From Candidatus Altiarchaeales archaeon (GTDB lineage Archaea; Altiarchaeota; Altiarchaeia; IMC4; QMZM01), in NCBI GenBank assembly GCA_023252215.1, contig JAHEXG010000002.1:16315-80314 (forward strand): 64,000 nucleotides of DNA, written 5' to 3'. The notes under the pieces are model-generated. The model was not told the origin of the DNA. It ran no database searches and saw only the letters and a list, made by a program, of their open reading frames with translations. This document shows positions 7,924 through 46,741 of this stretch, one piece after another. How positions within the stretch are numbered: position 1 is the first letter of the stretch; each line of letters opens with the position of its first letter. The translations under genes were made by a program, and so were the position numbers.

Positions 7924-8445
7924 ATGCCGGATGCTTTAATCGCCCAGTTTACAATCAAGGGCGCCGACGGTGAGGCCCAGGATGTAGGGTATAGGGTTTT
8001 TATCCTGACTGCTTTAAAGGGTTATGGAATAGATGTTTCCATGCCCATTAACGTACCAGGCGGCGGGGTCAAGGTAACTGTCCGAGGCGATGAGAAAACC
8101 GTCAGGGACGCCATAGAAGAGCTGCGGAAGACTAAACCAGATGTCAAGAAAGTCGGCAAGGTGGACGTCTCTGATCCCGTATTCGGCTCCTTTGACTTCA
8201 AGCCCTTCACTAATGAGGACATACAACTCCTAACCCTTAACCAGCTTAGCAAAGGGATCCCGGCTATCATCCGCATGGATGAAAAGGTCGACAGCATCGG
8301 CGGAGACATAGGAGACATGAAGGGAGTGGTTACAGGCCTCAACAACAAATATCACATTATCTCAAGAACCCTGAATTATCAGCTGATCGGCATAGCCCTC
8401 CTTGTATTGATGGCATTATGCGCCCTCGTCTTTCTGACGAGATAA
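7924..8445 (+). CDS. Membrane-anchored protein with acylphosphatase-like N-terminal domain
   Basis: QDVGYRVF...VKVTVRGDEKTVRDAIEELRK resembles the acylphosphatase fold (compare the HypF N-terminus in this window). C-terminal hydrophobic helix. Confidence 0.4.
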   Translation: MPDALIAQFTIKGADGEAQDVGYRVFILTALKGYGIDVSMPINVPGGGVKVTVRGDEKTVRDAIEELRKTKPDVKKVGKVDVSDPVFGSFDFKPFTNEDIQLLTLNQLSKGIPAIIRMDEKVDSIGGDIGDMKGVVTGLNNKYHIISRTLNYQLIGIALLVLMALCALVFLTR

Positions 8446-8533
8446 AGACCTTCTATGTGGGGTCTTTCAGACCCCACACTTCTTTCTTTTTCCGTAAACG
8501 CTTTTTCTTTCTTCTTAAGAAAGAAAAAGGGTT

Positions 8534-8671
8534 TGCCGAGGGCGGGACTTGAACCCACGACTTCCACGTTTCTCCGCTCCTTTTGTGGCCTTTTGAGTAC
8601 CAATTCAATTTTGTACCCTGTCGGGTACGGGCTTATGAGCGTGGCACTCTAACCAGCTGAGCTACCTCGGC
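8534..8671 (-). tRNA. tRNA-Met(CAU) (elongator or Ile2-type) with about 64-nt intron after position 37
   Basis: Manual fold of the reverse complement gives acceptor GCCGAGG/CCUCGGC, D-arm GCUC-AGCUGGUUA-GAGU, anticodon stem CCACG, loop CUCAUA[intron]A, T-arm GUGGG-UUCAAGU-CCCGC, discriminator A. No CCA encoded. Confidence 0.7.
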
Positions 8672-8804
8672 GTTTTTTTCGCACGCTGGGATGTCGACCT
8701 GCGGGTCGCCATCTCGACGTATTCAACCAATTTAGGGGTTGTAGGTTAGAATTGGGGGCTATATATTTAAATTTCGAATACCAATATGATAGGTTATATC
8801 TTTT
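8672..8804. promoter_or_regulatory. Divergent intergenic region between tRNA-Met (-) and tRNA-Tyr (+), with AT-rich palindromic TATA-like element atatatttaaat (8761-8772)
   Basis: TATA-like box about 35 nt upstream of tRNA-Tyr. The same palindromic element could serve the minus-strand tRNA-Met with an about 65-nt leader. Confidence 0.3.
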
Positions 8805-8970
8805 CCCGTCTTAGCGTAGACTGGTTAACGCGGCCGGCTGTAGTTTTGTTTTGAAGAGTCTTTTCTTTGCGGGGCTCTTATTTGGCCGTTTTAGTCGATT
8901 CGTGTTCAAGGTGCTTGGCCTTAGTAAAGCAGGTACCGGCAGACCCCCGGTTCAAATCCGGGAGACGGGA
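8805..8970 (+). tRNA. tRNA-Tyr(GUA) with about 91-nt intron
   Basis: Acceptor CCCGUCU/AGACGGG, D-arm GCGU-AGACUGGUUA-ACGC, anticodon stem GCCGG, loop CUGUAG then intron, stem CCGGC, T-arm CCCGG-UUCAAAU-CCGGG, discriminator A. Confidence 0.65.
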
Positions 8971-9022
8971 TATATTTTTATATTTAGCCCTAAAAAACAG
9001 ATAATATTTACTATTGATCTAT

Positions 9023-9095
9023 GCCCTGATAGTGTAGCGGCCTATCATGCAAGCCTGTCGAGTTTGCGACTCGGGTTCGAATCCCGATCGGGGCG
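9023..9095 (+). tRNA. tRNA-Asp(GUC)
   Basis: 73 nt. Acceptor GCCCUGA/UCGGGGC, anticodon loop CUGUCGA, T-loop UUCGAAU, discriminator G. No intron. Confidence 0.85.
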
Positions 9096-9167
9096 CTTAT
9101 TTCTTTTTTATAACTGTAGGTATTGTCATTGAATTTTTATTCTTTGAATACGTTATGTGTATAATAG

Positions 9168-10361
9168 TTATTTATTGATATGCACCACCTTCGCCGGCGG
9201 GAACCCGTTAAAATACGTAGACGAAGCGTGCGAGTATGCGCCTATGTTCTCCGAGTATACCAGGTCGTTTATTTCCAGTTCCGGCAGTTCCGCGCTTAGG
9301 GTGATCGTATCGAACGCATCGCAGGTCGGTCCGAATACCGCAGATACTTGTTTTTCTCCTGTCTTGAATGCGTGGACCGGGTAGTTGCAGTGATCGAAGA
9401 CCTGTCCCGAGTACGTGTGGTATACTCCGTCGTTTATGTAGTAGCAGGGTTTTCCGTCGCGGAAGGCTTTGCCTACGACTTTTGCGACGAGGGTGCATGC
9501 GTTTGCGACCATGAATCTTCCGGGTTCCGCGATTATCTGCATGTCTGAGGGGAACAGTCTTTTGAATTCGGTGTTAAGCCTTTTTGAGAGCGTCTTAAAG
9601 GATTTTACCTGTTTGTTGTATTTGACCGGGAATCCTCCGCCGATGTCGAGGATCAGTATCCGGTGGCCGCTTCTTGTCTCGGCTTCGCGTATTATGTTTG
9701 CCGAGAGTTGTAGTGCCTGTACGTAGTTTTCGAAGTTCGTGCATTGGCTGCCTACGTGGAAGCTCAGGCCTTCGACGTTTAGTCCCATGTTGAATGCTTC
9801 TACTATCAGGTCTGCCGCTTCGCCTGGGTCTGCTCCGAATTTGCTTGAGAGCTCGACCATTGAACCGGTATTCGGGACTCTTATCCTGAGCACGAGTCCT
9901 GCGTCCGGGGCGTATTCCTTTATTTTTTTGAGTTCTTCTATGTTGTCGTATGTGACGAGGGGTTTATATTTGTTGAGTTCCTGCAGCGTGTCTATGGGTT
10001 TTATGGTGTTTGCGTATATTATCTTGTCCCATATCCAGTCCTGCCTTTCCTTGTCTGGCAGTTTCTCTATGTTCTTGTGTACTATCATGAATTCCGGGAG
10101 GGACGCAACGTCGAAGCTTGCGCCCATGTCGAACAAGGTCTTTATGATCTGCGAGTCTGTGTTGGCTTTTACCGCGTAGTATGCCTGGACGCTGGGCAGA
10201 TTCTCGCGAAATTCTTTGTAGTTCTGCCTGATTTTTTCGTGGTCTATGACGAAGATTGGCGTTCCGTGTTCTTTTGCCAGGTTCTGCATTAGTTCTTTTT
10301 GGGCCTGGTCTATGTGCGGTACTCCGTTGTCCTTCTTTGTTTCCTTTTTAGCGTCTTCCAT
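9168..10361 (-). CDS. PLP-dependent Orn/Lys/Arg decarboxylase (eukaryote-type ODC fold)
   Basis: AYYAVKAN PLP-lysine motif, FHVGSQC, LDIGGGFP and EPGR motifs. Track ORF to 10577 overlaps rubrerythrin, so the true start is taken as MEDAKKE at 10361. Confidence 0.75.
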   Translation of the reverse strand: MEDAKKETKKDNGVPHIDQAQKELMQNLAKEHGTPIFVIDHEKIRQNYKEFRENLPSVQAYYAVKANTDSQIIKTLFDMGASFDVASLPEFMIVHKNIEKLPDKERQDWIWDKIIYANTIKPIDTLQELNKYKPLVTYDNIEELKKIKEYAPDAGLVLRIRVPNTGSMVELSSKFGADPGEAADLIVEAFNMGLNVEGLSFHVGSQCTNFENYVQALQLSANIIREAETRSGHRILILDIGGGFPVKYNKQVKSFKTLSKRLNTEFKRLFPSDMQIIAEPGRFMVANACTLVAKVVGKAFRDGKPCYYINDGVYHTYSGQVFDHCNYPVHAFKTGEKQVSAVFGPTCDAFDTITLSAELPELEINDLVYSENIGAYSHASSTYFNGFPPAKVVHINK

Positions 10362-10465
10362 TGTTTGTGTTAAATGACTAGGAAAAACGTGTTTATTAAA
10401 GGCGGAAATCGGTCGGGAAAGAGGTATGCTGAGTAGATAAAAAAATGGAACGGTGATACTGGAAG

Positions 10466-11041
10466 TCAGTAGTTTTCCGCCTTCAGCTCGTAATACGCCT
10501 GCGGGTGCTTGCATGCGGGGCATACCTTCGGAGCCTCCGTTCCTTCGTGGACGTAACCGCAGTTGCCGCATTTCCATTTCACGGCCTGTTCTTTTCTGAA
10601 TACTGTCCCGTTCTCTACGTTGGAAAGAAGCTTCCAGTATCTCTTTTCGTGATTCGCTTCCACGCTCCCTATCTCTTTGAATGCGGTCGCTACTTCCATG
10701 AATCCTTCTTCTCTTGCGGTCTTTTCGAATTCTGGATAGAGAGCAGTGTATTCCATCTTTTCCCCTTCGGCCGCGGCAAGAAGGTTCTCTGCCGTAGTTC
10801 CTATCTTTCCTGCAGGGTATGCTGCAATTATCCCGACGTCCCCTCCCTCGAGGAACTTGAAGAAGACCTTTGCATGCTCCTTTTCATTGTCTGCGGTCTC
10901 TATGAATATCGCGCTTATCTGCTCGAATCCTTCTTTCTTTGCGACTCCCGCAAAATACGTGTACCGGTTCCTTGCCTGGCTCTCCCCCGCAAACGCTTTC
11001 AACAGATTCTTCTCTGTTTCGCTTCCCTTCAGTTTTGCCAT
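10466..11041 (-). CDS. Rubrerythrin with C-terminal rubredoxin-like domain
   Basis: Di-iron ferritin-like ExxH motifs, then C-terminal CGNCGY...CPAC. Confidence 0.85.
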   Translation of the reverse strand: MAKLKGSETEKNLLKAFAGESQARNRYTYFAGVAKKEGFEQISAIFIETADNEKEHAKVFFKFLEGGDVGIIAAYPAGKIGTTAENLLAAAEGEKMEYTALYPEFEKTAREEGFMEVATAFKEIGSVEANHEKRYWKLLSNVENGTVFRKEQAVKWKCGNCGYVHEGTEAPKVCPACKHPQAYYELKAENY

Positions 11042-18051: not shown

Positions 18052-18957
18052 ATGGGCATAAATAAGGAATTCGAGCAATATCACAGAAGGCTTTTTTCGG
18101 ACTATGACGAGTTCATAGAGGCGCTGAGAAAGCCTGCAAGAAAGTCCATCCGGGTAAACACTCTAAAAGTAGACCGGGAACGGGTGGAAGAATTCCTTAA
18201 AAAGAACAACGCAGCATACAGCCCGATAACATGGTGCCAGGACGGCTTATGGATAGACTCCGATATGGAACTAGACACCGTAGAGCATCAGCTCGGATAC
18301 TACTACATACAGAATTCTTCGTCGATGATACCCTCGCTCGCACTCGACCCGTACCCGGGAGACTATGTGCTGGACATGTGCGCTGCGCCCGGCTCCAAGA
18401 CCACGCACATAGCGCAGCTAATGGAAAACAAGGGAGTCCTGGTCGCAAACGAGGCCAGTTTCGTACGCGTGCGCGCCCTCGTCATAAACATACAAAAAGC
18501 CGGGGCATCCAACGTGACAGTGACGAGAAGAGACGGGGTAGGCTTCGAGCGATACAACCAGAGATTCGACAAAGTCTTATTGGACGCTCCCTGCTCGGAC
18601 ATAGGCACCGCGAGAAAAAATTCCCAGGTCATCGCCAGATGGAGCATCGACCGCATACATAAACTATCCAACCTGCAAAAAAAACTGATAGCCTCGGCCT
18701 ACAACTCCCTTAATACAGGAGGAAGCCTCATATACTCCACCTGCACCACCAGCAGGGAAGAAAACGAGGACGTAATAGAATACCTGCTAAAAGAAAAACG
18801 GGAAGCAATACTGGAAAAATTCGAGATCCCCGGACTCAAGACACGCGAAGGCCTGACGAACAAGACAAGGAAAGCCGTGAGGATAATGCCGCAGGACAAC
18901 GATACCGAATCATATTTCATCGCAAAGATAAGAAAAACCGTAGACCAAAATGCTTAG
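18052..18957 (+). CDS. NOL1/NOP2/Sun family RNA cytosine-C5 methyltransferase
   Basis: SAM motif DMCAAPGSKT, motif IV DAPCS, catalytic TC in YSTCT. Confidence 0.8.
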   Translation: MGINKEFEQYHRRLFSDYDEFIEALRKPARKSIRVNTLKVDRERVEEFLKKNNAAYSPITWCQDGLWIDSDMELDTVEHQLGYYYIQNSSSMIPSLALDPYPGDYVLDMCAAPGSKTTHIAQLMENKGVLVANEASFVRVRALVINIQKAGASNVTVTRRDGVGFERYNQRFDKVLLDAPCSDIGTARKNSQVIARWSIDRIHKLSNLQKKLIASAYNSLNTGGSLIYSTCTTSREENEDVIEYLLKEKREAILEKFEIPGLKTREGLTNKTRKAVRIMPQDNDTESYFIAKIRKTVDQNA

Positions 18958-19408
18958 GAAACTGAAAAAAGAAGAAAAGGACTCGCTCATAGAAGACATA
19001 AACCTACAGTACGAGTCCTGCCTGGAGATCGAAGGCCTCTTTCTATCCAAAGACGAGAAACGGGAGTCCAAAAAGATCTTCTTATACACCGGAGAACGCA
19101 TCCCAGACGTTCCGGCAGAATGGACTGGGATACATTTCTGCACGATACGGGAGGGAACGATCATTCCCTCTATCGAAGGCGCGCAATACATCGGGCAGAC
19201 TGCGAAGAAGGGGATAGACCTCGATTATGAGCAGGCCAAGTACGTAATGTCAGGAAGAGACGTAGACATGCCGGAGGAAAAGGAAAAAGGATATTATATA
19301 CTCCGGTCGGGAGACGACGTTTTGGGAATAGGCCTTGCGGATAACAAAAAGATAATCAACCAGACGCCCAAATCCCGTAGGACGATGCAGCAGTACAGGA
19401 CTATCTGA
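18950..19408 (+). CDS. Hypothetical protein overlapping the methyltransferase stop; possible RNA-binding partner
   Basis: 152 aa. Start overlaps the upstream gene by 8 nt, suggesting translational coupling. Confidence 0.4.
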   Translation: MLRKLKKEEKDSLIEDINLQYESCLEIEGLFLSKDEKRESKKIFLYTGERIPDVPAEWTGIHFCTIREGTIIPSIEGAQYIGQTAKKGIDLDYEQAKYVMSGRDVDMPEEKEKGYYILRSGDDVLGIGLADNKKIINQTPKSRRTMQQYRTI

Positions 19409-28249: not shown

Positions 28250-28684
28250 CTACTCGACTAGGAGTGCCTGAAATGCTCCCGCCGTTCCCCCCATTTTCTT
28301 GTACAGCTCCGATCCGTCCAAGTACGCATAATTCTGCGGCGGCCTGAACCCAGAGCATGTTTCGTATGGGTCAATCGGGGTCTCGAATTGCTCGTATTCG
28401 TCTATCTCCAGGGCATGGATCGTTGTCTTGTCCGCGCAGTAAGCAAAGAAGTTGCCGTAATCTATTCCCCCGTACGACTTGCATTTCTCCCAGATATCCT
28501 TAGGCGAGCCGATCAATATCTGTTTTATAGTGAACCAGCCTACTATATGCTGTGTCGGGTTGGATTCGTATACATAGACTTTTTCGATTTTTTCCTTGGG
28601 CGTCTGTTTCCGGAATTCGTATCGCTTTTCACCAGAGAAAATCTTTTCGCTGTATTTTGGTTTAATCGACAACAATATTTTCAT
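28250..28684 (-). CDS. ASCH domain protein
   Basis: N-terminus MKILLSIKPKYSEKIFSGEKRYEFRK is a typical ASCH/PUA-like beta-barrel start. Overlaps the upstream gene by 23 nt. Confidence 0.7.
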   Translation of the reverse strand: MKILLSIKPKYSEKIFSGEKRYEFRKQTPKEKIEKVYVYESNPTQHIVGWFTIKQILIGSPKDIWEKCKSYGGIDYGNFFAYCADKTTIHALEIDEYEQFETPIDPYETCSGFRPPQNYAYLDGSELYKKMGGTAGAFQALLVE

Positions 28685-30176
28685 TGCTTTCTGTATTCTT
28701 GATTATTTTTTCAAAAGACTCATCGGATACCTTTTCGAAGCCCCTCGGAGCGCTCACGGTGTCCGGGATCACTCCAAGTTTTATTAGTCCCTCTAAGTTT
28801 ACTCTTTTTGGAAACGAGTATATATACAAAAAATTCACGATAAAGGACCTGTTTCTCGGATTGTAGTTCCAATGCTCTATGAGCTCTTCGTCGGAAAAGA
28901 CGCTCCTCTTTCGGCACAGGCTTATGAACTGCTCCTGGTCTTTTATCGCGGTATGGATGTTCTCGACAACTCCTATTGTGGTTATCACAGAAGTGTAGTA
29001 TGCCGATCGTCCGGGTTCAGCCGTACGGTAAAATATGATTACATCTCCTGCTTTGAGGTCCCTGTTAACGGATCTTGAAATGTATACCTTTGAGATGGCG
29101 TTTCTGTATGGCTCATTTTCGACAAAATCGAGGGGCGACTCCGTCTTGAGGATTGAATCGGGGAAAAGCTCGGTGTGGTACTGCGGGTATATCGGCACCA
29201 TGTATTTATTTGCCTTCCTGGAAATGAATGGATATGTGTTTTTCGAGTGTTCAAGGGACGCAGTCAAAGAGAGGTCGCGTACGTAGACATCTTCTTTTCC
29301 AGATAAAGATTCCTTTATTCCGTAATAATTGAATCCATAATCCTTTAACAACTCGATCAGTCGGGTTTGGTCCGGGAAGATCGTCACGTATATCTCGTCC
29401 ACCGAGGATTTAAGCGCGTTATCGTAGATTATTTTTATGAATCTTTCCCCGAGTTTGAACCCGCTTAAATCCACTTTGAAAGTCCCTACCTTCAGGCGCT
29501 TCTTTTTCTTGAACGGTGGAGTTATGCCTTCGTAAGGCTCGGATTCGTTCTCGACTTTAAGGTATAAGAATGCCACAATCTTTTTTCCAGCAGTACAGAC
29601 GTATGAGAGCTCCTGTGCCTTTTTGTCGAACCATTTGTCAAAGCCGACGTACGCCTTTCTGAGGCTTTCGAAAAATTCGTCCTTCAAGTCGATGTTACTG
29701 AAGTATCCTTTCTTGACGGACAATACCTTGTAGTCCACCAGACCAGGATTCTCTGAGGATACTTTCTCGATGAAGCTCTCGATGGTGAAAATTTTATCCT
29801 CTATCCCCATCTTCCGGGATTTTTCATGAAGCTTACGGTCTTCGGTTATTAGATAATCGATGCGTCCAGAGTAGACCTCATTTAATAGCAGAGTATCGTT
29901 TTTATCGTTTTCAGTAGCATCCCCTTTTGATAGGATTGATATTTCAGCACCTATCGACGCTTCGGTCGGCAAGAGGTAGTAGCTCTTTAATTTTATGGAA
30001 AATGCTTTGCATGCTTCTTCGTTCTTATTTTTGTTTATCTCCGCGATGGTTACTCTGTGCATGCATTTCTCGTATTTTAATTTGTCCAGCCATCGAAAGA
30101 GTTCTCCTATATCTTTATTACTAGGATTAATGGTTTCTCGATGAATCACTATGTTGGTGTCGAGCAGGACTTTCAT
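28662..30176 (-). CDS. Three-domain protein: N-terminal PIN nuclease, central GNAT-like acetyltransferase fold, C-terminal PUA/ASCH-like domain
   Basis: PIN acidic residues in LLDTNIV, NDTLLL, ITEDRKL. GNAT-like middle domain (KIVAFLYLKV, GFKLGERFIKI, YGF). C-terminal GDVIIFYRTAEP beta-barrel-like. GAGGT SD. AT-rich locus. Confidence 0.6.
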   Translation of the reverse strand: MKVLLDTNIVIHRETINPSNKDIGELFRWLDKLKYEKCMHRVTIAEINKNKNEEACKAFSIKLKSYYLLPTEASIGAEISILSKGDATENDKNDTLLLNEVYSGRIDYLITEDRKLHEKSRKMGIEDKIFTIESFIEKVSSENPGLVDYKVLSVKKGYFSNIDLKDEFFESLRKAYVGFDKWFDKKAQELSYVCTAGKKIVAFLYLKVENESEPYEGITPPFKKKKRLKVGTFKVDLSGFKLGERFIKIIYDNALKSSVDEIYVTIFPDQTRLIELLKDYGFNYYGIKESLSGKEDVYVRDLSLTASLEHSKNTYPFISRKANKYMVPIYPQYHTELFPDSILKTESPLDFVENEPYRNAISKVYISRSVNRDLKAGDVIIFYRTAEPGRSAYYTSVITTIGVVENIHTAIKDQEQFISLCRKRSVFSDEELIEHWNYNPRNRSFIVNFLYIYSFPKRVNLEGLIKLGVIPDTVSAPRGFEKVSDESFEKIIKNTESNENIVVD

Positions 30177-33563: not shown

Positions 33564-36500
33564 TTAGACATTCATGGTCACAGTTCTGGTCTCCGTTGTT
33601 CCAGATCCTCCCGCAGTCTTGTTCGCTGAGAAATAATAGCTGGATTTGCCGTTCTCAAGCCCTGTCAGATTCCCGTAGAACCGCCATTCTGTGGAACTGT
33701 ATTTCTGCAGCTCCGACTGGTAGAACATGGATATTTCCTTCTGGGAGAGAGCCCTGTTGTATATCCTCACCTCATCTATCAAGCCTTTAAAGTTCCTTCC
33801 TGATATGCCTGAGCCTATTTTAACAGTGCTGCAGGGAGTAATGCTTGAGAACGCGGTTGTTGCATAGCCCGCTACGGATCCGTCCTGATAGAGCGTGAGG
33901 TTCCCGGACTTCGCAGTTATAGCTATGTGCCTCCATACTCCTGTCGGCGTCTGCGCGATTATAGGCAGGTTTATCCCTCCGCTGCTTGTGAATACTGCCA
34001 TGTTACCAATCGCATTAAGCTGCATGTGGACCATACAGCTGTCAGGGGTTCCGACTATAGACTGGAATGTTCCGGTGGTCGCATTCACGTTCACCCAGGC
34101 GATCACCGTGAGCTCGGCTGCGCCGCCCAGCGTACCGTTGACATCGACCTGATCATCCACACCATCGAAGAACATAGCTCCGTTATATTTACCGGATCTT
34201 GACCAGACGGCACCGGATATGTTGCCAACGTGTCCCTTCGAGGAGACGTCCCCAACCTTTGTCGCGCTGTCGCCTGCGGCCGATATGTTGTTGAAGTTAT
34301 AGGCCAATGCAAGAGAGCCATCAAGCACCCTATACGTAGTCCCGTTCCAGTACAGGGAGAGTCCGGATATTGCTGCAGTATTTGACACGTTTACTTGAGC
34401 AAAGCTGCGGTTTATCGTCGCACCATTAGTCTCAGTCGGTGTCTTGAAAGATAACAAGGCAAGAGTAGTTGTTGTCGTGGTCGTCGTGGTAACAAGTGTT
34501 CCGACGTTATTCTGTTCGGCGCCGAATACCGTCTGAGGTTCTGGGAAAACATATTCGGCTACGTAGAGGTCATCCCACCGATTATTGTCAACCGATGCCT
34601 CTGAGCCGCCGGTCTTACCGAGAGACACAAATCCGCTCTTGTAGGGCCATGCAAAGGTATTCCTCTTGGTTCCGTTGAAATACAGGCTCATGTTAGTCCC
34701 GTCGAAACGGAAGCCTTCCATGAACCAGCGGTCCTGCACCGGAACATACTGTCCAAAGCTTGCGGACCCATTGAATCCGGAATAATAACCAATATTGTTA
34801 TTCGGATCACCATGGTGGAAGAACGCAGCATCCAGCGGCCAGACCTGATTTGGAGCAACTCTCCAAAGACCAGTCTGCGCAGTCTCCCCGCCAGTATTAT
34901 CCTCCGCATTCCAGGACTTCACTCCCACAAGATAAGGCTTAGAAATGTTCAAGCCTATTGGAGCCTTTGAAAGATTCAGATAGACATAAGCGTAGCCGTT
35001 CATGCAAGTCTGATAGCCGCTCTCCCCACACTCAGGAGTCTCCAAATAGCCGTTGGCCTCATTGATAGACGCCTCGCTCTGAAGCTTTGTCCAAGCGGAA
35101 TTGACTACACCATCATTAAAGTCATCGAAGAAAAGGAATGTCTTGCTGCCATTGCTCTGAGATACGGCAGAAGCATTGCCGTAGAACAACCAAAGCTGAG
35201 TCCCGTTTTTAGTATTCAAAGAGTCGGCTTTAATCCAAACCTCTGCCCACGAACCGTTATTTACATTCTCTACCCAGTAAGGCAGTGCAGTCGATCCGTT
35301 GCGATTCACGAACCTTAGATCAGAGAAGTCCGGCTTCATGTCACTGTCGTATGTGACTTTAAAGAAAAGACCGAGGTTGGTTGCGTTTTTTGCCACGCTG
35401 ATGTTCACAGGAACGCGCTTGGCAAAGCCGGGGAGGACGGAAGCTGACTGAGTCGTGGTGGTTGTTGTAGTTGTAGTGGTCGTGGTAGTTCTTGTAGTGG
35501 AAGTAGTTGTTGTGGTAGTAGTTGTAGTGGTTGTCATTGTAGTGGTCGTGGTAGTCATTGTAGTGGTCGTGGTAGTCATTGTAGTGGTCGTGGTAGTCAT
35601 TGTAGTGGTCGTGGTAGTCATTGTAGTGGTCGTGGTAGTCGTCGTAGTGGTCGTACCAACGCGAACCGTCCGTACTCCATTGTCTGTCTGCGCCTTGTTC
35701 CCGGCAGAATCATTCGCCCACGCGTAATAAGTATACGTCCCAACGCCCAGATTCGACAGGTTACAATAGAACCGATACTCAGTCGAATTATACTTCTGCA
35801 CCTCAGACTGATAATGAAACCACACCTCCTGCGCAGAAAGCTTGCGACGGTATATGCGCAGTTCGTCTATGCTGCCATTCATGGTCCCTCCGTCAACCCG
35901 CGAACCGACTGTAAGAGCTGCGGCGCTCTTTATGCCGTTACTCCCCAGGTTGTCCGCGTCCACTTCGGTCGCGACGCTCACGCCATTGAAATACATCTGC
36001 GGGCTGCCATCCCCACCGTAGGCAATCGCTACATGATACCAAGTATTCAGCGGAATCGTGCTAACAGACCTCTTAGACATCCTCGAGGTGAACCAGTTAT
36101 TGATCAGCTCCAGATAAATCTTGCCGTCGGCGAAGATCTCCACGCCGTAACCCATATATGGATCGGAATTCATCTTTGCCACTATCGGAGAATGCGCCGT
36201 CGTCCTCCTGTAGACCCAGGCCTCGAAAGAGAACGAATCAGTCCGGTCAAAACTCGTGCTATCCGACGTAGGAACAGTCACAACGTCATTGTATCCGTCA
36301 AAGGATACTGCTTTGCCGTACTTTCCTCCGACGAACGCAGGACACTTGCCGCCCGCCAGGTCGCACGATCCATTGTTCTTGTACTTTGAAGCGTCCACGA
36401 AACGAATCGAGGATTCGCCGAGGGCAGTGTTGTTGTTGAAGCCCTGCGCAAGCACCAGATCCTTGTCGTATACACTGTAATTGACACCATTCCAGTTGAA

Positions 36501-39500
36501 CCACATTGAGTCCAAAACATTGCCTGAACCAGGAGACACGCTCACGTTAAAGACGGCTCCGTTCGGACTGACCTGACTGTTATTGACAGGGGTCGGAGAG
36601 CGGAAAACGACACCGATCAATGTGGTCGCCAGAGTCGTCGAGGTAGTCGTCGTGGTAGACGTTGTAGTGGTCGTACCAACGCGAACCGTCCGTACTCCAT
36701 TGTCTGTCTGCGCCTTGTTCCCGGCAGAATCATTCGCCCACGCGTAATAAGTATACGTCCCAACGCCCAGATTCGACAGGTTACAATAGAACCGATACTC
36801 AGTCGAATTATACTTCTGCACCTCAGACTGATAATGAAACCACACCTCCTGCGCAGAAAGCTTGCGTCTATAGACCCGGACCTCGTCGATCGAACCGTTT
36901 ATAGTCCCCCCGTCGACCCTCGAACCTATGGTGAAAGGAGCGGAACTCTTGATGCTGCTAGACCCCAGCGTATCGAAAACTGTGTCCACACCCACGCTTA
37001 CGCCGTTGAAATACATCTGCGGGCTGCCATCGCCGCCATACGTAACAGCGACGTGATACCACGTATTCACCGGGATTATAGCAGCAGACCTCTTGATCAA
37101 GCGGGTTCTGAACCAATTATAGATCAGCTCAAAAGACAGCCGATCAGAATTGATCTCAAAACCGTAGCCCGTATAAGGATCAGAGGACATCTTTGCAAGG
37201 ATAGGAACAGACAAAGACGACCTGCGATAGACCCATGCCTCGAAAGAGAACGAATCGGTCCGCTCAAAATTCAGGCTCTCAGAATTCGGGACAGTCACAA
37301 CATCGTTTGAGCCGTCAAAAGACAGGGCGGAGCCGAACCTTCCGGAAACGTATGATGGGCATTTCCCCCCTGCAAGGTCGCATGAACCATTATTCCCCTG
37401 CCCGGAAACATCGACAAATAGAGTTGACGACTCGCCGATGCGAGTATTTCCATTAAAGGACTGACCAAGAACAAGATCCTTGTCATAAATGCTGTAGTTG
37501 ACCCCGTTCCAGTTGAACCTCAGGGAGTCAAGGGTCCTGCCCGAACCCGTGGACAGGCTCACATTAAGGACGGCTCCGTTCGGACCCACAAGGCTGTTGT
37601 TGGAAGGAGTGGGGGAACGAAAAGAGACACTGATCAAGGTGGCTGGCAGGGTCGTCGTGGTTGTAGTTGTTGTGCATGAAGTTCGACAAATACCATCACT
37701 GCACATAATCCCGTTTGTTCCACAGGCTTGCCAAGCACCCCATTTACCGATGTCGCAGGAGCAATAACGCACTTGCATCCCAGGACAACCATTAGCCGCG
37801 ATGCAGTTTTTTGTGTCCATTCCTCTCGCATCCGGCCAGCAGTAGGAACATTCTGCGCCGATCACCGTCACAATACCATCAGATTCTGTAATCGCCGCTT
37901 CATTTCCATATTCAAAATTTATTTCAGAATCCGTCAAGTCCAAAATAACGTTCCCTGGAGAAATCGCCATAAAAGTTACAACCGACAGAGCGGTTCCTGC
38001 ACTAGCCTTAGGCTCAAGGCATGCAAAATCGATCCCAACGACACCTGGCTTATTTGCAGAGACGTTGTAGCGCGAGCTGCAAGATGAGAGATAATCGCCT
38101 GACGAAACGCCAGTAACATTCAGTACTGATGAATTGTAATATAATCTGAAACTATATCCATAGATACCATCAAGAGGCGTCGATGCGATCTGCACCGTAA
38201 AGATATCATTTACTTTGACTTGACTAGCAGATGGAACTGCGCTTATAGTCGCTGAAGGGCCCTCAAAAGACTTGAGACCCAGTTTAGTGGTCTTAGCTTG
38301 ATTCGTGGCACTTGAAACGCTTTTCCCGGTTCCGTAGCTTGTAGAAAGAGTGAGCAGATCACCGTAATTCACGTATCCATTCTCATCAAAGTCGGAACGG
38401 ATATCATAGTTCTGCTGGCCTTTATTTGAACCGTATGCCGTAGCAAGAATCAATAGATCGGAGTAATCCACCTTATTATCTCGATTAGCATCTCCTGCGA
38501 GGCCGCCGATTGGATCGCAAACATCGCCTATGTAATTGTGATTATAGTCCATCTGGCCAGGATTACGGTCAAAGGGACAATTATCGTTTTTATCGAATAC
38601 GCCATCGTTGTCGTCGTCGCAGTCATAATAATCGGCATTTCCATCGCCATCGCTATCCCTTTTGGCTGAAAGGCGGAATTCTCCAGAACCAGAATCCATA
38701 TCAACTTCTATGTAATACGTCCCCGAATTGCTGATAACGCAACTCTCAGTTTCTGAACCAATAGTCCTACTTGTACAGAAAGGCTCGCTACCACAGGCAC
38801 TCGAAACATAGAGATCATAATCTGCACTAGAAGACATGCTCAGGTAAACAACGCCGGGAGAACTAAAACTCACCTTATAAAAACCACGCCATAGGTAATT
38901 TAAATCAGGGGTGTAAGTAGCTTTAACGACGCTATCCGGAGAAATCACTGGCGCGTTTGCGCAATAATAGTCGCCGGCATTTGAGACTGCAGCAGACTCG
39001 GGACAGCCGCTATTGCATTCTGGACCGTATGTTGAAAGGCAAGTATCTCTGCAATCTTTGACTCCATCTCCATCAGAGTCGTACAGACAACTGGGAGTAC
39101 TTAGTATATCCACGACGACGACTGAATATATTTTCGTCGGAATGTCTACGGAGATATAGTCGCCATCGGATTTTGGGATTCCTACAGAATCGCATCGCCG
39201 CCAGAGATTGGTTTTGGTTGTCAAATCAGTCTCTATGTTTTTGCCATCGTAAAGGTCTCCGCTAAGCAGTTTTATCTCTATGTGGTTCGTTTGTGTGTTT
39301 GCGGGGAGTTTGAGTAAAACAGGAGCATAATAAAAACGTGTCAGAGCTTTGCCGCCGTTTTTCTCCTGTACGGCATGAATGACATACCTCTTACCAGTAG
39401 GGCGTAATGGGCTGCTATAGGTTAACACGCCAGTTATGGCCAGATCATAATTAATCCCCGGGTCGGGTATGATTCCATCAGTAGAGGGATAAATCGTGGG

Positions 39501-41916: not shown

Positions 41917-43312
41917 GGTTGTCCCATAATTCTTTGTTTGAATTTGTGTTTGTGTATTTATACTTTCTTTCGTAAATCATTATGCAGAGGCGCATTTGTT
42001 ATGGCTTATATTGATTCTTTTAAGGGTCAGAATTGGCTTCTTCCGCCTAGTATTCGTGATATGATTCCGGGGGCCATGTCTGTTTTTTTGTTGAGGATTT
42101 TGTTGATTCTTTGGATTATTCAGGATTTGATTCTGTTTATGAGGACGCAGAGCATCCTGCTTATCATCCTCGTGTTTTGTTGAAGGTTTTGGTTTAGGGT
42201 ATGATGTGCGGTACTCGTTCTTCCCGGAAGATTGCGCGTGCTGCGCGTGAGAATTTTGTTTTCATGTATTTGGCTGAGCGATTATGTCCTGATATAAGAT
42301 GATTGAGGAGGACAATACCTTGGATGATTTGAAAGATGAATTGTTTGACGGCAGGGAAGAAGGCTTAACCGGCGTTGATAGGCGTGATTTAAAGCGTATT
42401 GTGCGGGAGTACAATGAGAGTGAAAACAAGAAGCGGATTAAGAAAAAAATAGGTAAGGCCAAGACGGAGCTTGAAGAGCATGGTTTGAAGAAGGTTTCTC
42501 TTTCGGATCCTGAGCGTCGCATGATGCAGAATAAGCATGGAGTGAGTGAGTTGTGCTATAATATTCAATTGGGTGTTTCCAGTAATCAGATTGTTTTGTC
42601 TTCTGATGTCTGCCAGGATAAACATGATGCGCATCAGTTTATTCCTCAGATGAACAAGCTGCGGGAAAACGTTGAGCTGCAAAAGAACACAAAAATCGGC
42701 GTGGAATGCGCTTACAGCGACAGGGAAAACATCCATTTTGCGGAGGATAAGGGCTTGGATTTGTATGATCCTTCGAGGGCGCAGACTCAGGAATTAGATT
42801 GCAAGGAACAGAATCTCAATCACGACCATTACGAATATGATGAAAAGCACAATGAGATCATTGTAGATGGAACAAGGTATCGATATCGTGGTCCTTATAC
42901 GAGAAATAAGAGCGGGAGGACGCTTGTCACCTTCTACAATCCGCAGATAAAGAAGAAAAAAGACCGTCCGTCCTATTTTAGGGAGCGTCTTAGAATGAGG
43001 AATAAAATGTCCACACCTGAAGATAGACGGATTTATAATCAGCGTAAGACAAGCGTGGAGCCAGTGTAAGGAAACCTGAAAACCAATCGGGGTTAGGGAA
43101 TTTTTACTGAGAAGAAGGGAAAAAGCAAAGATCGAACTAAATTTAGCGTGTATCGCGCACAATTTGCAGAAAATACATCGAATGATGGGCGAAAAAAGCG
43201 GGGTATTGACCCGAAAAGAGGGACGTTTTTTAATTCAACCCCCCAAAAAAAAAGCTTCAGTACCTCAAAAACCAAAAACGAATTATGGGACAGCCTCAGA
43301 CATTTAAACGCC
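41917..43312 (+). mobile_element. IS1182-family insertion sequence remnant with 16-bp imperfect terminal inverted repeats
   Basis: Left IR GGTTGTCCCATAATTC (41917-41932) and right IR (reverse complement) GGCTGTCCCATAATTC (43280-43295). Internal transposase fragments. Lower GC than flanks. Confidence 0.6.
42001..43312 (+). pseudogene. IS1182-family DDE transposase, inactivated by at least 5 frameshifts
   Basis: N-terminus MAYIDSFKGQNWLLPPSIRDMIP then a frame change. ...VCFFVEDFVDSLDYSGFDSVYEDAEHPAYHPRVLLKVLV and ...RSSRKIARAARENFVFMYLAERLCPDIR lie in other frames. Middle ORF 42299..43069 holds SDPERRMMQNKHG...YNIQLGV...SSDVCQDKHDAHQ. C-terminal FGNLKTNRG / REFLLRRREKAKIELNLACIAHNL is again shifted. 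Confidence 0.65.
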
Positions 43313-44099: not shown

Positions 44100-45347
44100 A
44101 TGGCTTATCCAAGAGCAAGAACACCGATAGCTTTATCGCTTATACTGTGCGTTCTGCTATTTTTCTGCGGATGCGCAGGCAACAAAGGGACTGCCGTCAC
44201 AACCACCACCCAGTTCATTACCGCGACAACGCTGCCGGTTCAGAATACCCCCGCAGCCTCGTTCGGAGAATACGCCACATTCTACACCCGCATGGTTTAC
44301 GCAGGGAACCTGGGAGGAAAGCCCGCATATATCGTATCAAATGGCAATGTATCGAATGGCAATAAAAAACTCATATTATACGACGGAAAAGAGATAGGAG
44401 CGTCCTATGATCAGGCTCTTATGCCCGCGCTCATCGCCGGAAAATTGTTCTATGCGGGCGTCAAGAATAATAAATACAGCGCAGTATATGACGGACAGGA
44501 AATTGGAAAAGATTTCTTCTCCATCTGGTCTCCCGGCGAATACCTGGGAAAGCCCATCTACGTCGCCGAGAAGATAGGAAAAAGCGTCCTTATTTTTGAC
44601 GGGAACGAAATAAGCAACGCAAGCTACGACTACGTCTGGTCCTATGCAATAATAAACGGCAAGATCGCTTATCTTGCATCAAAGGCAGGGGAGACGTATA
44701 TCGCCAAAAAAATCAACCCCCAGACTTCGGAGTCCAGGAGAGACATCCCGCCAGAGGGGGTGAAATCGGTCATAGTCTATGACGGAAAGGAGTATGGCAG
44801 GGAATATGACACCGTAGGCTTCCCGATGGGTATCAAAGGATCGCTTGCCTTTATCGCTCTCAAAGGCGCTAAAAAATTCACGGTTCTGGGCGGCATGGAG
44901 GGCACGAAATACGACGACATACACGAACCCCTATTATACGATGGGAAGACCGCGTACATAGCCGAGAAAGACGGGAAAAGCTTCCTTGTATACGACGGCG
45001 CGGAGTATAAAGCATACGACCGCATTGACCCAACCTCGTTGAAGAACATCGATGGAAAAATGTCTTACCGGGCCGCTGATCCAACCACCAAAAAAGGAAA
45101 ATACTTCATAGTATATGACGGCGCAGAGATTGGGAAAGACTACGACAACGTCCTCTCATTTGCCGCGTTGTCAGGAAAGCAGGCTTATGTTGCGGATAAT
45201 AAGACAACACGCTCAGTTGTCTACGCCGGCGGGAGCAGCGGGAAAGCATACAGCGCGATTGACCCGGACTCGCTTGCATTCTACGACGGGAAGCTCATGT
45301 TCACGGCCCAGAAAAACGGCGTATGGTACGTCGTATCGGAGGAATAA
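44100..45347 (+). CDS. Lipoprotein with about 9 tandem 36-40-aa repeats (YDGxEIGxxYD periodicity)
   Basis: Signal/lipobox LLFFCGCAG. Repeated K..Y[IV]AEK.GKS.L[IV]YDG.E.G..YD units. Confidence 0.7.
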   Translation: MAYPRARTPIALSLILCVLLFFCGCAGNKGTAVTTTTQFITATTLPVQNTPAASFGEYATFYTRMVYAGNLGGKPAYIVSNGNVSNGNKKLILYDGKEIGASYDQALMPALIAGKLFYAGVKNNKYSAVYDGQEIGKDFFSIWSPGEYLGKPIYVAEKIGKSVLIFDGNEISNASYDYVWSYAIINGKIAYLASKAGETYIAKKINPQTSESRRDIPPEGVKSVIVYDGKEYGREYDTVGFPMGIKGSLAFIALKGAKKFTVLGGMEGTKYDDIHEPLLYDGKTAYIAEKDGKSFLVYDGAEYKAYDRIDPTSLKNIDGKMSYRAADPTTKKGKYFIVYDGAEIGKDYDNVLSFAALSGKQAYVADNKTTRSVVYAGGSSGKAYSAIDPDSLAFYDGKLMFTAQKNGVWYVVSEE

Positions 45348-46665: not shown

Positions 46666-46741
46666 AATTGTAATTGTGTTTTGAGAGTATAAAAAATTCC
46701 CAAAAACCTTTATTTCCTTTTGGTCTCCCATAAAATAACCT

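What the first reader, a model, noticed from the sequence alone, without database searches (positions are those of the whole stretch)
8534..9095. tRNA cluster with two unusually long introns (64 nt in tRNA-Met/Ile2 CAU, 91 nt in tRNA-Tyr GUA)
Manual folding gives canonical cloverleaves only if 64 nt and 91 nt are removed at the 37/38 position of the CAU and GUA tRNAs. The adjacent tRNA-Asp is intron-less.
Introns of this size could hide functional RNAs, since C/D-box guides are known in some archaeal tRNA introns. The CAU tRNA could be elongator Met or agmatidine-modified Ile2. The ORF-track protein 8851..9132 is an artefact of this RNA locus.
Basis: seen in the sequence. Interest (0 to 1): 0.55.

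Follow-up and report, generated by a model that had tools for sequence, protein, structure and literature searches.

The report
Intron-split archaeal tRNA-Met and tRNA-Tyr genes
These are three ordinary tRNA genes of an uncultivated archaeon (Altiarchaeota), two split by protein-spliced introns that hold no guide RNA but do carry a short conserved stretch complementary to the tRNA's own D-arm, of unknown role.

Summary
Window 8534-9095 carries tRNA(CAU) on the minus strand (8671-8534, 64-nt intron), tRNA-Tyr(GUA) (8805-8970, 91-nt intron) and an intron-less tRNA-Asp (9023-9095). Both introns sit at 37/38. The Tyr intron forms a perfect bulge-helix-bulge motif; the CAU one has a single A.G mismatch in the central helix.

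The host is an Altiarchaeota genome, and the divergent Met / Tyr-Asp cluster is conserved across the phylum. Intron length varies freely there: 0-246 nt for CAU and 22-349 nt for Tyr. Haloferax has 75-nt and 103-nt tRNA introns, so "unusually long" is overstated.

Neither intron has C/D boxes, a k-turn or an Rfam sRNA match. The CAU tRNA is elongator Met, not Ile2: one relative's contig holds both types, and the other type matches tRNA-Ile(GAU). ORF 8851-9132 is an artefact.

One thing is new. Most Altiarchaeota Met introns, and about half of the Tyr introns, contain a 6-12-nt element complementary to exon positions 22-29 of their own tRNA. Its substitutions preserve pairing, and it tracks exon changes. 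This helix cannot be nested with the cloverleaf plus splice motif. Its function is only inferred, either as a folding gate in cis or as an antisense in trans. Predicted energies give no extra net stabilisation over shuffled introns.

The parts
8534..8671 (-). Elongator tRNA-Met(CAU) gene, 138 nt including the intron. The 5' exon is 8671-8634 and the 3' exon is 8569-8534. It has G1-C72 and discriminator A73, and no encoded CCA.
   Evidence: Rfam RF00005 54.6 bits. ARAGORN with introns allowed. Coordinates. Met rather than Ile2.
8570..8633 (-). 64-nt intron at 37/38 of tRNA-Met. Its parts are a 5' hairpin (8628-8613), an exon-complementary block (8602-8576) and the strand that pairs with the anticodon loop in the splice motif (GGAG + AA, 8575-8570).
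   Evidence: The hairpin shows two compensatory pairs among five relatives.
8595..8602 (-). Intron element UGGUACUC, complementary to exon positions 22-29 (GAGUGCCA, window 8649-8642). That stretch is the D-stem 3' strand, G26 and the top of the anticodon stem.
   Evidence: 8 bp with 1 G.U. It is used in the MFE fold and in the RNAalifold consensus of five relatives. 22 of 28 distinct Altiarchaeota Met genes carry an equivalent element.
8576..8590 (-). Further intron blocks: GGCCA (8590-8586), complementary to D-loop UGGUU 17-21, and GAGC (8579-8576), complementary to the D-stem 5' strand 10-13. Both are nested with the 22-29 helix.
   Evidence: Ambiguous, because GGCCA can equally pair with the element's own UGGU inside the intron (constrained fold).
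8805..8970 (+). tRNA-Tyr(GUA) gene, 166 nt including the intron. The 5' exon is 8805-8843 and the 3' exon is 8935-8970. It has the archaeal-type C1-G72 pair and A73.
   Evidence: ARAGORN with introns allowed. Coordinates. 50 distinct homologues, all with an intron at 37/38.
8844..8934 (+). 91-nt intron at 37/38 of tRNA-Tyr, with a perfect hBHBh' motif. Its parts are a hairpin (8853-8879), the element UUGGCCGU (8882-8889) complementary to exon 24-31, UUAGUC (8891-8896) complementary to D-loop 15-20, and the central-helix partner GCAG + GU (8929-8934).
9023..9095 (+). tRNA-Asp(GUC) gene, intron-less, discriminator G73.
8760..8779 (.). AT-rich TATA-like box (TATATATTTAAATTTCGAAT) in the divergent spacer between the Met and Tyr genes, about 30-45 nt upstream of the Tyr 5' end. 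A near-identical sequence occurs in relatives. It is the presumed archaeal promoter.
   Evidence: Sequence. The same motif sits at the same place in L007, L017, L024, L011 and L013. Function is inferred.

Best explanation
The locus is a conserved Altiarchaeota tRNA gene cluster. Elongator tRNA-Met(CAU) is transcribed leftwards, and tRNA-Tyr(GUA) and tRNA-Asp(GUC) rightwards, from a shared AT-rich spacer.

[quoted passage not shown] The pre-tRNA presents a bulge-helix-bulge motif. The archaeal splicing endonuclease (EndA) would cut in the two 3-nt bulges, and an RtcB-type ligase would join the exons and probably circularise the intron. These enzymatic steps are inferred from the established pathway and are not shown here.

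The introns are not guide-RNA carriers. They lack C/D boxes and k-turns.

Besides the splice motif and a variable hairpin, each intron holds a short element complementary to positions 22-29 of its own 5' exon (D-stem 3' strand, nucleotide 26, top of the anticodon stem). In the window's subclade the complementarity extends over the whole D-arm. This element is conserved while the rest of the intron is free to vary in sequence and length.

The most likely role (inferred, about 35-40%) is a cis-acting alternative pairing. It competes with the cloverleaf and splice-competent fold, and so gates or orders pre-tRNA maturation.
For: Genes and introns.

Splice motif: Tyr, all pairs valid; CAU.

Lineage: a genome scan with the CAU 5'-exon pattern returns almost only Candidatus Altiarchaeota/Altiarchaeales MAGs. 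The closest are L007 (introns 64/93 nt) and L017 (62/89 nt). The neighbouring decarboxylase is 91% identical to an NCBI 'Altiarchaeia' protein.

Intron length plasticity.

Met identity:
- The window tRNA is 93% identical to the GCCGAAG-type CAU tRNA of contig L010.
- It is only 64-69% identical to L010's second CAU tRNA and to tRNA-Ile(GAU).
- That second CAU tRNA is about 90% identical to tRNA-Ile(GAU).
- G1-C72 and a CCACG anticodon stem exclude an initiator.

No C/D guide.

Exon-complementary element:
- An unbiased 6-mer complement profile peaks at exon 22-27 for Met. It is found in 14/16 introns against 1.0 expected from shuffles, and in 19/24 against 2/24 for reversed introns.
- The same profile peaks at 24-29 for Tyr: 24/50 against 3.4 expected, and 24/50 against 5/50 reversed.
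- 22 of 28 distinct Met genes have 6-12 bp of complementarity.
- Element variants GGCACUC, GGUACUC, GGCGCUC, GGUGCUC and GCAUUC differ only by pairing-preserving transitions.
- L042 has exon C25 with element G, where others have U25 with A or G.
- The Tyr element tracks exon 27/29. Exon GCGGCC goes with GGCCGY, GCGUCC with GGACGC or GGGCGC, GCGUCU with AGACGC or AGGCGC, and GCGGCU with AGCUGC.
- The exon-intron helix is in the MFE of 23/23 Met pre-tRNAs against about 12% of shuffled-intron controls.
- It is also in the RNAalifold consensus of the window's subclade.
Against: - No expression, splicing or structure-probing data exist for this uncultivated lineage.
- The CAU splice motif has an A35.G mismatch, conserved in the subclade (window, L007, L017, L024, L033). 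It is therefore relaxed rather than strict.
- The predicted energy gap between the MFE and the cloverleaf-plus-BHB fold is no larger for natural introns (-6.0 kcal/mol) than for shuffled ones (-5.3). The 'mask' is a specific pairing, not an extra net stabilisation.
- For Tyr, the three-sequence RNAalifold consensus keeps the cloverleaf and does not use the exon-intron helix.
- Only about half of the Tyr introns carry the element, and the shortest introns of both genes lack it (19-nt Met introns; most Tyr introns of 22-36 nt).
- By eye, Asp and Ile(GAU) introns of the same phylum show no such element.
- The introns are homologous, so counts of genes are not counts of independent events. The exon changes that co-vary are few.
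Confidence: 0.8

Rival explanations
1. The exon-complementary element acts in trans after splicing. The excised, probably circular, intron pairs with other copies of the same pre-tRNA or mature tRNA. It would serve as a guide or antisense, for example to recruit a modification enzyme to the D-arm / position 26-27 region or to titrate the tRNA. This is analogous to the trans-acting tRNA-Trp intron RNP of Haloferax or to yeast free tRNA introns.
For: - Exon-intron pairing and the splice-motif helix are not nestable. In the shortest element-bearing introns they use the same nucleotides...GGCACUCUGAG in L011, L013 and L026. That argues against simultaneous use in cis.
- Archaeal tRNA introns are circularised and detectable (PMC7714728).
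- Free tRNA introns act through complementarity in yeast (bioRxiv 10.1101/2025.11.19.689297).
Against: - There is no conserved protein-binding box (C/D, k-turn, ACA) at a fixed distance from the element.
- A CUGA follows the element only in some species. Where it does, the N+5 rule points to different nucleotides (C27 in L011, A23 in L015), so it is explained by the splice motif instead.
- No 2'-O-methyl or other guided modification is known to me at 22-29.
Confidence: 0.2
2. The exon-complementary element has no function. It would be an inherited leftover, for example from the way the intron arose or grew by local duplication or inversion of exon sequence, or a chance match.
For: - Intron growth by duplication is visible. 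Pseudo-3'-exon starts (ACCGGCAGAC...) occur inside the Tyr introns of L013, L024 and L040, and there are tandem repeats in L031.
- Natural introns give no extra net stabilisation of the alternative fold.
- The element is absent from the shortest introns and from Asp and Ile introns.
Against: - The element is the only intron-internal block retained across lineages whose introns are otherwise unalignable, spanning 23-246 nt.
- All of its substitutions preserve pairing, and one exon change is compensated.
- Two non-homologous introns (Met and Tyr) target the same structural position of their own, different exons.
- The peak lies at 24-29, not at 27-31 as a copied 3'-exon strand would give.
Confidence: 0.2
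3. One reading: the long introns hide a box C/D (or other known) small guide RNA.
For: There is a precedent in the same phylum. The 122-nt tRNA-Trp intron of an Altiarchaeum contig (L045) carries UGGAGCG-CUGA, which by the N+5 rule targets C34.
Against: - The CAU intron has no C box within one mismatch and no D box. The Tyr intron has one near-C box (UGAAGA) and no CUGA.
- No Rfam sRNA family rises above noise. The best is a Giardia snoRNA model at 14.5 bits against a gathering score of 84.
- A candidate k-turn seen in L007 and L024 is not conserved in the window or L017, judged by eye from the alignment.
Confidence: 0.03
4. The CAU tRNA is tRNA-Ile2, whose C34 is converted to agmatidine by TiaS, rather than elongator Met.
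For: Only the shared CAU anticodon and A73.
Against: - Contig L010 of the same phylum holds both kinds of CAU tRNA.
- The one with acceptor GGGCCCG and anticodon stem CUCGA is about 90% identical to tRNA-Ile(GAU).
- The window tRNA is 93% identical to the other kind and 64-69% identical to the Ile-like ones.
Confidence: 0.03

Closest known systems
Canonical archaeal tRNA introns (hBHBh' motif at 37/38), for example Haloferax volcanii tRNA-Met(CAU) with a 75-nt intron
   Same: The same gene (elongator Met), the same insertion point, a similar size, and a bulge-helix-bulge splice signal. Removal by EndA and circularisation by ligase are presumed (PMC7714728).
   Different: The CAU motif here has an A.G mismatch in the 4-bp helix. 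Whether the Haloferax intron also has a D-arm-complementary element could not be checked with the collections available.
Box C/D guide-bearing tRNA-Trp intron (H. volcanii, 103 nt; guides Cm34 and Um39)
   Same: It is a long intron at 37/38 with segments complementary to its own exons. That exon-intron pairing is incompatible with the splice motif, which is why the Trp intron is thought to act in trans (cited in PMC7714728; the detail is from my own knowledge of Singh et al. 2004).
   Different: There are no C/C'/D/D' boxes and no k-turn here. The complementarity is to the D-arm / 26 / top of the anticodon stem (22-29), not to 34 and 39. No fixed spacing to any box exists, so the N+5 rule cannot apply.
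Eukaryotic tRNA-Tyr intron (universally conserved; needed for pseudouridine 35 and m1A58)
   Same: The tRNA-Tyr intron is retained in every homologue sampled (50 of 50). This echoes the universal retention in eukaryotes (PMC12168002) and suggests an intron-dependent maturation step.
   Different: The archaeal motif and enzymes differ. No modification data exist here. The eukaryotic intron pairs with the anticodon, not with the D-arm.
Free tRNA introns acting by complementarity (yeast fitRNAs)
   Same: An excised tRNA intron with a functional complementary stretch (bioRxiv 10.1101/2025.11.19.689297).
   Different: In yeast the targets are mRNAs. Here the only consistent complement is the intron's own tRNA.

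Membership tests
Archaeal bulge-helix-bulge tRNA intron (canonical, 37/38) | The intron lies between positions 37 and 38, and its removal restores a standard cloverleaf. | tested here: met
   ARAGORN with introns allowed, for both genes. The Rfam tRNA model spans the CAU gene at 54.6 bits with the insertion in the anticodon loop.
Archaeal bulge-helix-bulge tRNA intron (canonical, 37/38) | Two 3-nt bulges holding the splice sites, separated by a 4-bp helix and flanked by helices h and h' of at least 2 bp. | tested here: met
   Tyr: all pairs are valid. The central helix is CG, UA, GC, UG; h' has 5 bp; h has 5 bp.
Archaeal bulge-helix-bulge tRNA intron (canonical, 37/38) | The same strict motif for the CAU gene. 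| tested here: inconclusive
   The central helix is C-G, U-A, C-G plus an A35.G mismatch, and h' has 2 bp (sequence). The mismatch is conserved in the subclade. Other Altiarchaeota have a perfect UGAG:CUCA helix. It counts as a relaxed motif. Whether the host enzyme accepts it is unknown.
Archaeal bulge-helix-bulge tRNA intron (canonical, 37/38) | Cleavage by EndA and ligation by RtcB in vivo. | not testable with these tools
   No transcript data. No EndA gene was found among the window ORFs scanned.
Box C/D sRNA embedded in a tRNA intron | A C box (RUGAUGA) and a D box (CUGA), with or without C'/D', able to form a k-turn. | tested here: not met
   Motif scan. Rfam at E<=10.
Box C/D sRNA embedded in a tRNA intron | A guide of about 9-12 nt ending next to D/D', with the target at N+5. 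| tested here: not met
   Complementarity exists (8 bp), but there is no box. In relatives where CUGA follows the element, the implied target differs between species.
Elongator tRNA-Met (archaeal) | CAU anticodon, a G1-C72 type acceptor (not the A1-U72 of initiators) and no run of three G-C pairs at the bottom of the anticodon stem. | tested here: met
   Sequence: GCCGAGG/CCUCGGC acceptor and CCACG/CGUGG anticodon stem.
Elongator tRNA-Met (archaeal) | A body distinct from the tRNA-Ile2(CAU) of the same lineage. | tested here: met
   93% identity against 64-69%. Formal isotype covariance models (tRNAscan-SE 2.0, PMC8450103) were not available.
tRNA-Ile2(CAU), TiaS substrate | A body resembling the tRNA-Ile(GAU) of the same organism (shared IleRS identity set). 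| tested here: not met
   The Ile-like CAU tRNA of the phylum is a different gene (L010 6756-6917).
Archaeal tRNA-Tyr | GUA anticodon, C1-G72 first pair, A73. | tested here: met
   Sequence 8805-8970.

The most novel reading that the evidence does not exclude
Altiarchaeota tRNA-Met and tRNA-Tyr introns carry a dedicated 'anti-D-arm' element. This box-less antisense of 6-12 nt (up to about 17 bp in three nested blocks in the window's subclade) pairs with positions 22-29 of its own tRNA. It would act as a built-in conformational gate on pre-tRNA folding and splicing, or as a trans-acting antisense once the intron is excised. That would be a functional class of archaeal tRNA-intron element distinct from C/D guides, and a concrete selective reason for keeping these introns.
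Probability: 0.3. Interest if true: 0.7.

Novelty: new variant of a known kind. Interest (0 to 1): 0.42.

Why it matters
As first described, the finding is routine annotation. It is an archaeal tRNA cluster that standard bacterial-mode tools half miss, and it explains away a spurious ORF.

The added value is twofold. First, it documents that an entire uncultivated phylum keeps canonical introns in tRNA-Met and tRNA-Tyr whose length is almost unconstrained, from 0 to about 350 nt. Second, one short block inside them is held complementary to the tRNA's own D-arm and anticodon-stem junction.

Why tRNA introns persist is a long-standing question. Intron-dependent modification and C/D guides are the only established answers in archaea. 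A conserved element that co-varies with its exon gives a specific hypothesis. It can be tested with in vitro transcripts, a recombinant endonuclease and structure probing, even without a culture.

Tried and rejected
1. C/D-box guide. The motif scan and Rfam were negative. Rfam on the DPANN and Altiarchaeum loci also gave no intronic sRNA family, only a sub-threshold sR3-like hit next to a tRNA-Trp.

2. K-turn. A plausible one (AAU-GA-UUUGG...CCAGA-GCG-GA) exists in L007 and L024 but not in the window or L017. Rejected as not conserved.

3. CUGA after the element as a D' box. The implied N+5 target shifts between species, and the CUGA is explained by the splice-motif helix (UGAG:CUCA). Rejected.

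4. 'Masking' as extra thermodynamic stabilisation. Natural and shuffled introns give the same energy gap. Rejected in that form; only the specificity of the pairing stands.

5. Generality of the element. By eye it is absent from Asp, Ile(GAU) and Ile2 introns, from the shortest introns of both genes (most Tyr introns of 22-36 nt), and from the DPANN Met introns with the same exon. It is not a universal property of archaeal tRNA introns.

6. Tyr exon-intron helix in a consensus fold. It is not recovered for window+L007+L017, although it is in the window's own MFE.

7. Element as a copy of the 3' exon strand. The complement peak is at 24-29, not 27-31. Rejected.

8. Synteny route to relatives through the neighbouring decarboxylase. 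Only very close relatives keep the adjacency, so I switched to exon-pattern scans.

9. Intron mobility or repeats. The two window introns have no other copy in the window or in each other.

10. Literature. Nothing was found on Altiarchaeota tRNA introns or on D-arm-complementary introns. Two 'find' calls failed on syntax.
Full report
**What is there**

Reading 8300-9400 and running ARAGORN with introns allowed gives three tRNA genes:
- tRNA(CAU) on the minus strand, 8671..8534, with a 64-nt intron.
- tRNA-Tyr(GUA), 8805..8970 on the plus strand, with a 91-nt intron.
- An uninterrupted tRNA-Asp(GUC) at 9023..9095.

Default ARAGORN sees only Asp. Rfam's tRNA model finds Asp and the CAU gene, each at 54.6 bits, the latter with a 66-nt insertion in the anticodon loop. 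It misses Tyr at its gathering score. No further tRNA is found in the 64-kb window even with introns of up to 300 nt allowed. Exact exon and intron coordinates were fixed. The finding's range, 8534-9095, runs exactly from the CAU 3' end to the Asp 3' end.

**Splice signals**

Both introns lie between positions 37 and 38. For Tyr the strict hBHBh' motif forms with every pair valid:
- Anticodon stem of 5 bp.
- 3' bulge G-U|A38.
- Central helix C32-G, U33-A, G34-C, U35.G.
- 5' bulge A36-G37|U.
- Outer helix h' of 5 bp.

For CAU the same register gives C32-G, U33-A and C34-G, but then an A35.G mismatch, and a 2-bp outer helix (sequence). I found no alternative register that restores a 4-bp helix. 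The mismatch (intron end ...GCGGAGAW) is conserved in the five closest relatives. More distant relatives have the perfect ...CUGAGNN.

**Whose genome**

The neighbouring decarboxylase (9168-10577, minus strand) has a 100% identical database entry. Its close relatives are labelled Altiarchaeia or, less often, Methanomicrobiales. A scan of one genome per species with a 22-nt piece of the CAU 5' exon returned 23 contigs. Nearly all are Candidatus Altiarchaeota or Altiarchaeales MAGs, plus a few DPANN archaea.

The arrangement of Met leftwards and Tyr then Asp rightwards recurs in most of them. The rest of the window fits a free-living anaerobic archaeon:
- MetRS and a class II Asp/Asn-type synthetase.
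- Topoisomerase.
- Hyp maturation genes.
- An Mvh/Hdr-like hydrogenase.
- A 2650-residue surface protein.

**Are the introns unusual?**

Not by archaeal standards. Haloferax volcanii has 75 nt in tRNA-Met(CAU), 103 nt in tRNA-Trp and 31 nt in tRNA-Gln (PMC7714728).

Within Altiarchaeota the same two introns are strikingly elastic. In 28 distinct Met genes the intron is 0, 19, 23, 26 ... 143, 246 nt. In 50 distinct Tyr genes, found by a metagenome scan that left exon positions 27-29 free, every copy has an intron, of 22 to 349 nt. The closest relatives have 64/93 nt (L007) and 62/89 nt (L017).

Some long introns grew by internal duplication. L013, L024 and L040 carry pseudo-3'-exon starts, and L031 carries tandem repeats. 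Others grew by acquiring a CCCTTTCTTT...AAAGAAAGGG palindrome (L003, L021).

**Hidden guide RNA?**

No. The CAU intron has no UGAUGA within one mismatch and no CUGA. The Tyr intron has one near-match (UGAAGA) and no CUGA. Rfam at E<=10 gives only noise. A k-turn that can be drawn for L007 and L024 is not conserved in the window.

As a positive control for the phylum, the 122-nt tRNA-Trp intron of an Altiarchaeum contig (L045) does carry UGGAGCG-CUGA, which by the N+5 rule targets C34.

**Met or Ile2?**

Contig L010 (Altiarchaeota) holds two CAU tRNAs. One is 93% identical to the window tRNA. The other has acceptor GGGCCCG, anticodon stem CUCGA and an 87-nt intron. It is about 90% identical to the tRNA-Ile(GAU) of L013 and L081, and only 64-69% identical to the window tRNA. 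The Ile-like one is Ile2.

The window gene has G1-C72 and no G-C triplet in the anticodon stem, so it is elongator Met. Isotype covariance models, the standard classifier (PMC8450103), could not be run here.

**The ORF**

ORF 8851-9132 starts with TTG and has no Pfam match. It runs through the Tyr intron, the Tyr 3' exon, the spacer and the whole of tRNA-Asp. It is an artefact.

**What the comparison revealed**

Lining up the Met introns shows that only two things are kept:
- The 3' end that pairs with the anticodon loop in the splice motif.
- An internal block, GGCACUC(U).

That block is the exact complement of exon positions 22-28, GAGUGCC. This stretch is the D-stem 3' strand, G26 and the first two anticodon-stem nucleotides.

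I tested this without choosing the site in advance. For every 6-nt window of both exons, I asked whether the intron holds a complement with at most one G.U.
- For Met the profile has a single sharp peak at 22-27. It is found in 14 of 16 introns against 1.0 expected from shuffles. With the larger set it is 19 of 24, against 2 of 24 for reversed introns.
- For Tyr, a different tRNA with a different exon sequence and a non-homologous intron, the single strongest peak is at 24-29. It is found in 24 of 50 introns against 3.4 expected, and against 5 of 50 reversed. This peak is stronger than the signal of the splice-motif helix itself.

In all, 22 of 28 distinct Met genes have 6-12 contiguous complementary base pairs centred there. 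The exceptions are the intron-less gene, three 19-nt introns and two with only 5 bp.

**Evidence that pairing is what is conserved**

- The Met element varies only by transitions that keep pairing: C to U opposite G, and A to G opposite U. This gives GGUACUC in the window, and GGCGCUC, GGUGCUC and GCAUUC elsewhere.
- The one genome with an exon change in the target (L042, U25 to C) has G at the partner position.
- For Tyr, the element follows the exon class at 27-29. GGCCGY goes with GCGGCC. GGACGC or GGGCGC goes with GCGUCC. AGACGC or AGGCGC goes with GCGUCU. AGCUGC goes with GCGGCU.
- Own-class matches are 11/16, 6/13 and 6/20, and off-diagonal matches are mostly 0-3.

In the window's subclade the Met intron's 3' half reads UGGUACUC-AAAA-GGCCA-...-GAGC. 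It is a nested antisense of positions 22-29, 17-21 and 10-13, that is, the whole D-arm. RNAalifold on five relatives chooses exactly this fold rather than the cloverleaf.

The window's Tyr intron has the same layout (UUGGCCGU-U-UUAGUC-...-CGU) in its own MFE.

**Limits**

- The exon-intron helix and the splice motif cannot be nested. In the shortest element-bearing introns they even share nucleotides. They are alternative states, or at best a pseudoknot.
- The predicted energy advantage of the alternative state over the cloverleaf-plus-BHB fold (-6.0 kcal/mol on average) is no greater than with shuffled introns (-5.3). What is special is that the natural MFE pairs exon 22-27 with the intron in 23 of 23 cases, against about 12% of shuffles.
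- For Tyr, the consensus fold of the three closest sequences keeps the cloverleaf.
- The GGCCA block can also pair with the element's own UGGU, so the second helix is ambiguous.
- By eye, Asp, Ile and Ile2 introns of the phylum lack an equivalent element.
- DPANN relatives with the identical Met exon have a different intron design.
- The introns are homologous within each gene family, so gene counts overstate the number of independent events.

A rough estimate suggests chance is unlikely. A conserved 7-mer would have to complement some tRNA window by chance. An independent 6-mer in another tRNA would have to do the same. Both would have to fall at the same structural position. The joint probability is of the order of 1e-4 or less. 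This is inference, not a formal test.

**Mechanism**

What rests on established knowledge:
- Transcription from the shared AT-rich spacer. A TATA-like box at 8760-8779 is conserved in relatives.
- Cleavage by EndA in the two bulges, at 8634|8633 and 8570|8569 for Met and at 8843|8844 and 8934|8935 for Tyr.
- Exon ligation and intron circularisation by RtcB.

The A/A ambiguity at both Met junctions does not change the product.

What is inferred is that the anti-D-arm element provides an alternative pairing. My estimates are:
- About 35-40%: it gates or orders maturation in cis.
- About 20%: it lets the excised intron act as an antisense or guide on its own tRNA in trans.
- About 20%: it does nothing.

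**Comparison with known systems**

The locus is a member of the canonical archaeal BHB-intron class. This is firm for Tyr; for Met the motif is relaxed. It is not a member of the C/D-guide intron class, since its defining boxes were tested and are absent. It does resemble that class in having exon-complementary intron segments whose pairing excludes the splice motif.

I found no description of Altiarchaeota tRNA introns or of D-arm-complementary introns in the searchable literature. That library omits most subscription journals, so prior mention cannot be excluded.

**Verdict**

The specific interpretations (unusually long, a C/D guide, possible Ile2) are not borne out. The conserved element that co-varies with its exon is a modestly novel feature worth a targeted experiment.

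Noticed in passing
window 8481-8533 (minus strand, immediately 3' of tRNA-Met); also L010 about 1785-1830, and L021 inside the Met intron: Right after the tRNA 3' end lies a pyrimidine/purine palindrome, ACCCUUUUUCUUUCUU-AAG-AAGAAAGAAAAAG, followed by GCGUUUACGGAAA. The same hairpin + AAAGCGTTKACGG module follows tRNA-Leu in L010 and sits inside the 246-nt intron of L021. Similar CCCTTTCTTT...AAAGAAAGGG palindromes occur in the introns of L003, L021 and L026-Asp. It could be a 3'-trailer or terminator module, or a small mobile palindrome that inflates introns.
   Followed up: partly
L016, L019, L020, L023, L025 (DPANN MAGs), tRNA-Met introns: These carry the same Met exon but a different intron design. 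It is a hairpin that reads as a k-turn (for example L023 ..AAU-GA-GGC uucuu GCC-GAU-GA-UU..). It is preceded by UGAGC, which is complementary to G31-A35, with an AUGA/CUGA-like box placed so that N+5 = C34. That would be a Cm34 guide, as known in trans for Haloferax tRNA-Met. This was read by eye. Rfam found no family.
   Followed up: partly
L045 7647-7844 and 7860-7916 (CCXY01000053.1): The tRNA-Trp has a 122-nt intron with a classical C34 guide (UGGAGCG-CUGA). A sub-threshold sR3-like C/D sRNA hit (30.5 bits against a gathering score of 41) lies immediately downstream.
   Followed up: partly
L010 6756-6917: The tRNA-Ile2(CAU) of an Altiarchaeota MAG has an 87-nt intron containing the CCCUUCUUUCC...GGAGGGAGGG palindrome. 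It was useful as the Ile2 reference.
   Followed up: yes
L013, L024, L040, L031 Tyr introns: Introns of 150-349 nt contain repeated modules. Some are hairpins built from a copy of the 3'-exon start (ACCGGCAGACC...) and its complement. L031 has four tandem copies of GTTTTTGGCTCCTCTTTGGAGGATCCAAAAAC. This shows intron growth by local duplication.
   Followed up: no
L005, L009, L012, L021 between tRNA-Tyr and tRNA-Asp: In several relatives a small ORF (about 75 aa, MKAYVLIKT...) sits between Tyr and Asp. One or two truncated copies of the tRNA-Asp 5' half, each followed by a hairpin, also sit there. In L003 an integrase gene follows tRNA-Asp. This may be a footprint of element integration at tRNA-Asp. 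It is absent from the window.
   Followed up: no
window 18052-18957 and 18950-19408 (+): An RsmB/NSUN-type m5C RNA methyltransferase and its PUA domain are called as two overlapping ORFs. This is either a frameshift or sequencing error, or a genuinely split gene.
   Followed up: no
window 33564-41516 (-): A 2650-residue ORF with three Laminin_G_3 domains, a cohesin domain and DUF2341. It is a giant surface or adhesion protein, of possible interest given the cell-surface appendages known in Altiarchaeum.
   Followed up: no
window 28662-30176 (-), 42299-43069, 44100-45347, 45835-46803: Several sizeable ORFs have no Pfam match or only a faint one. The 504-aa ORF has a weak PIN_3 hit below threshold.
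   Followed up: no
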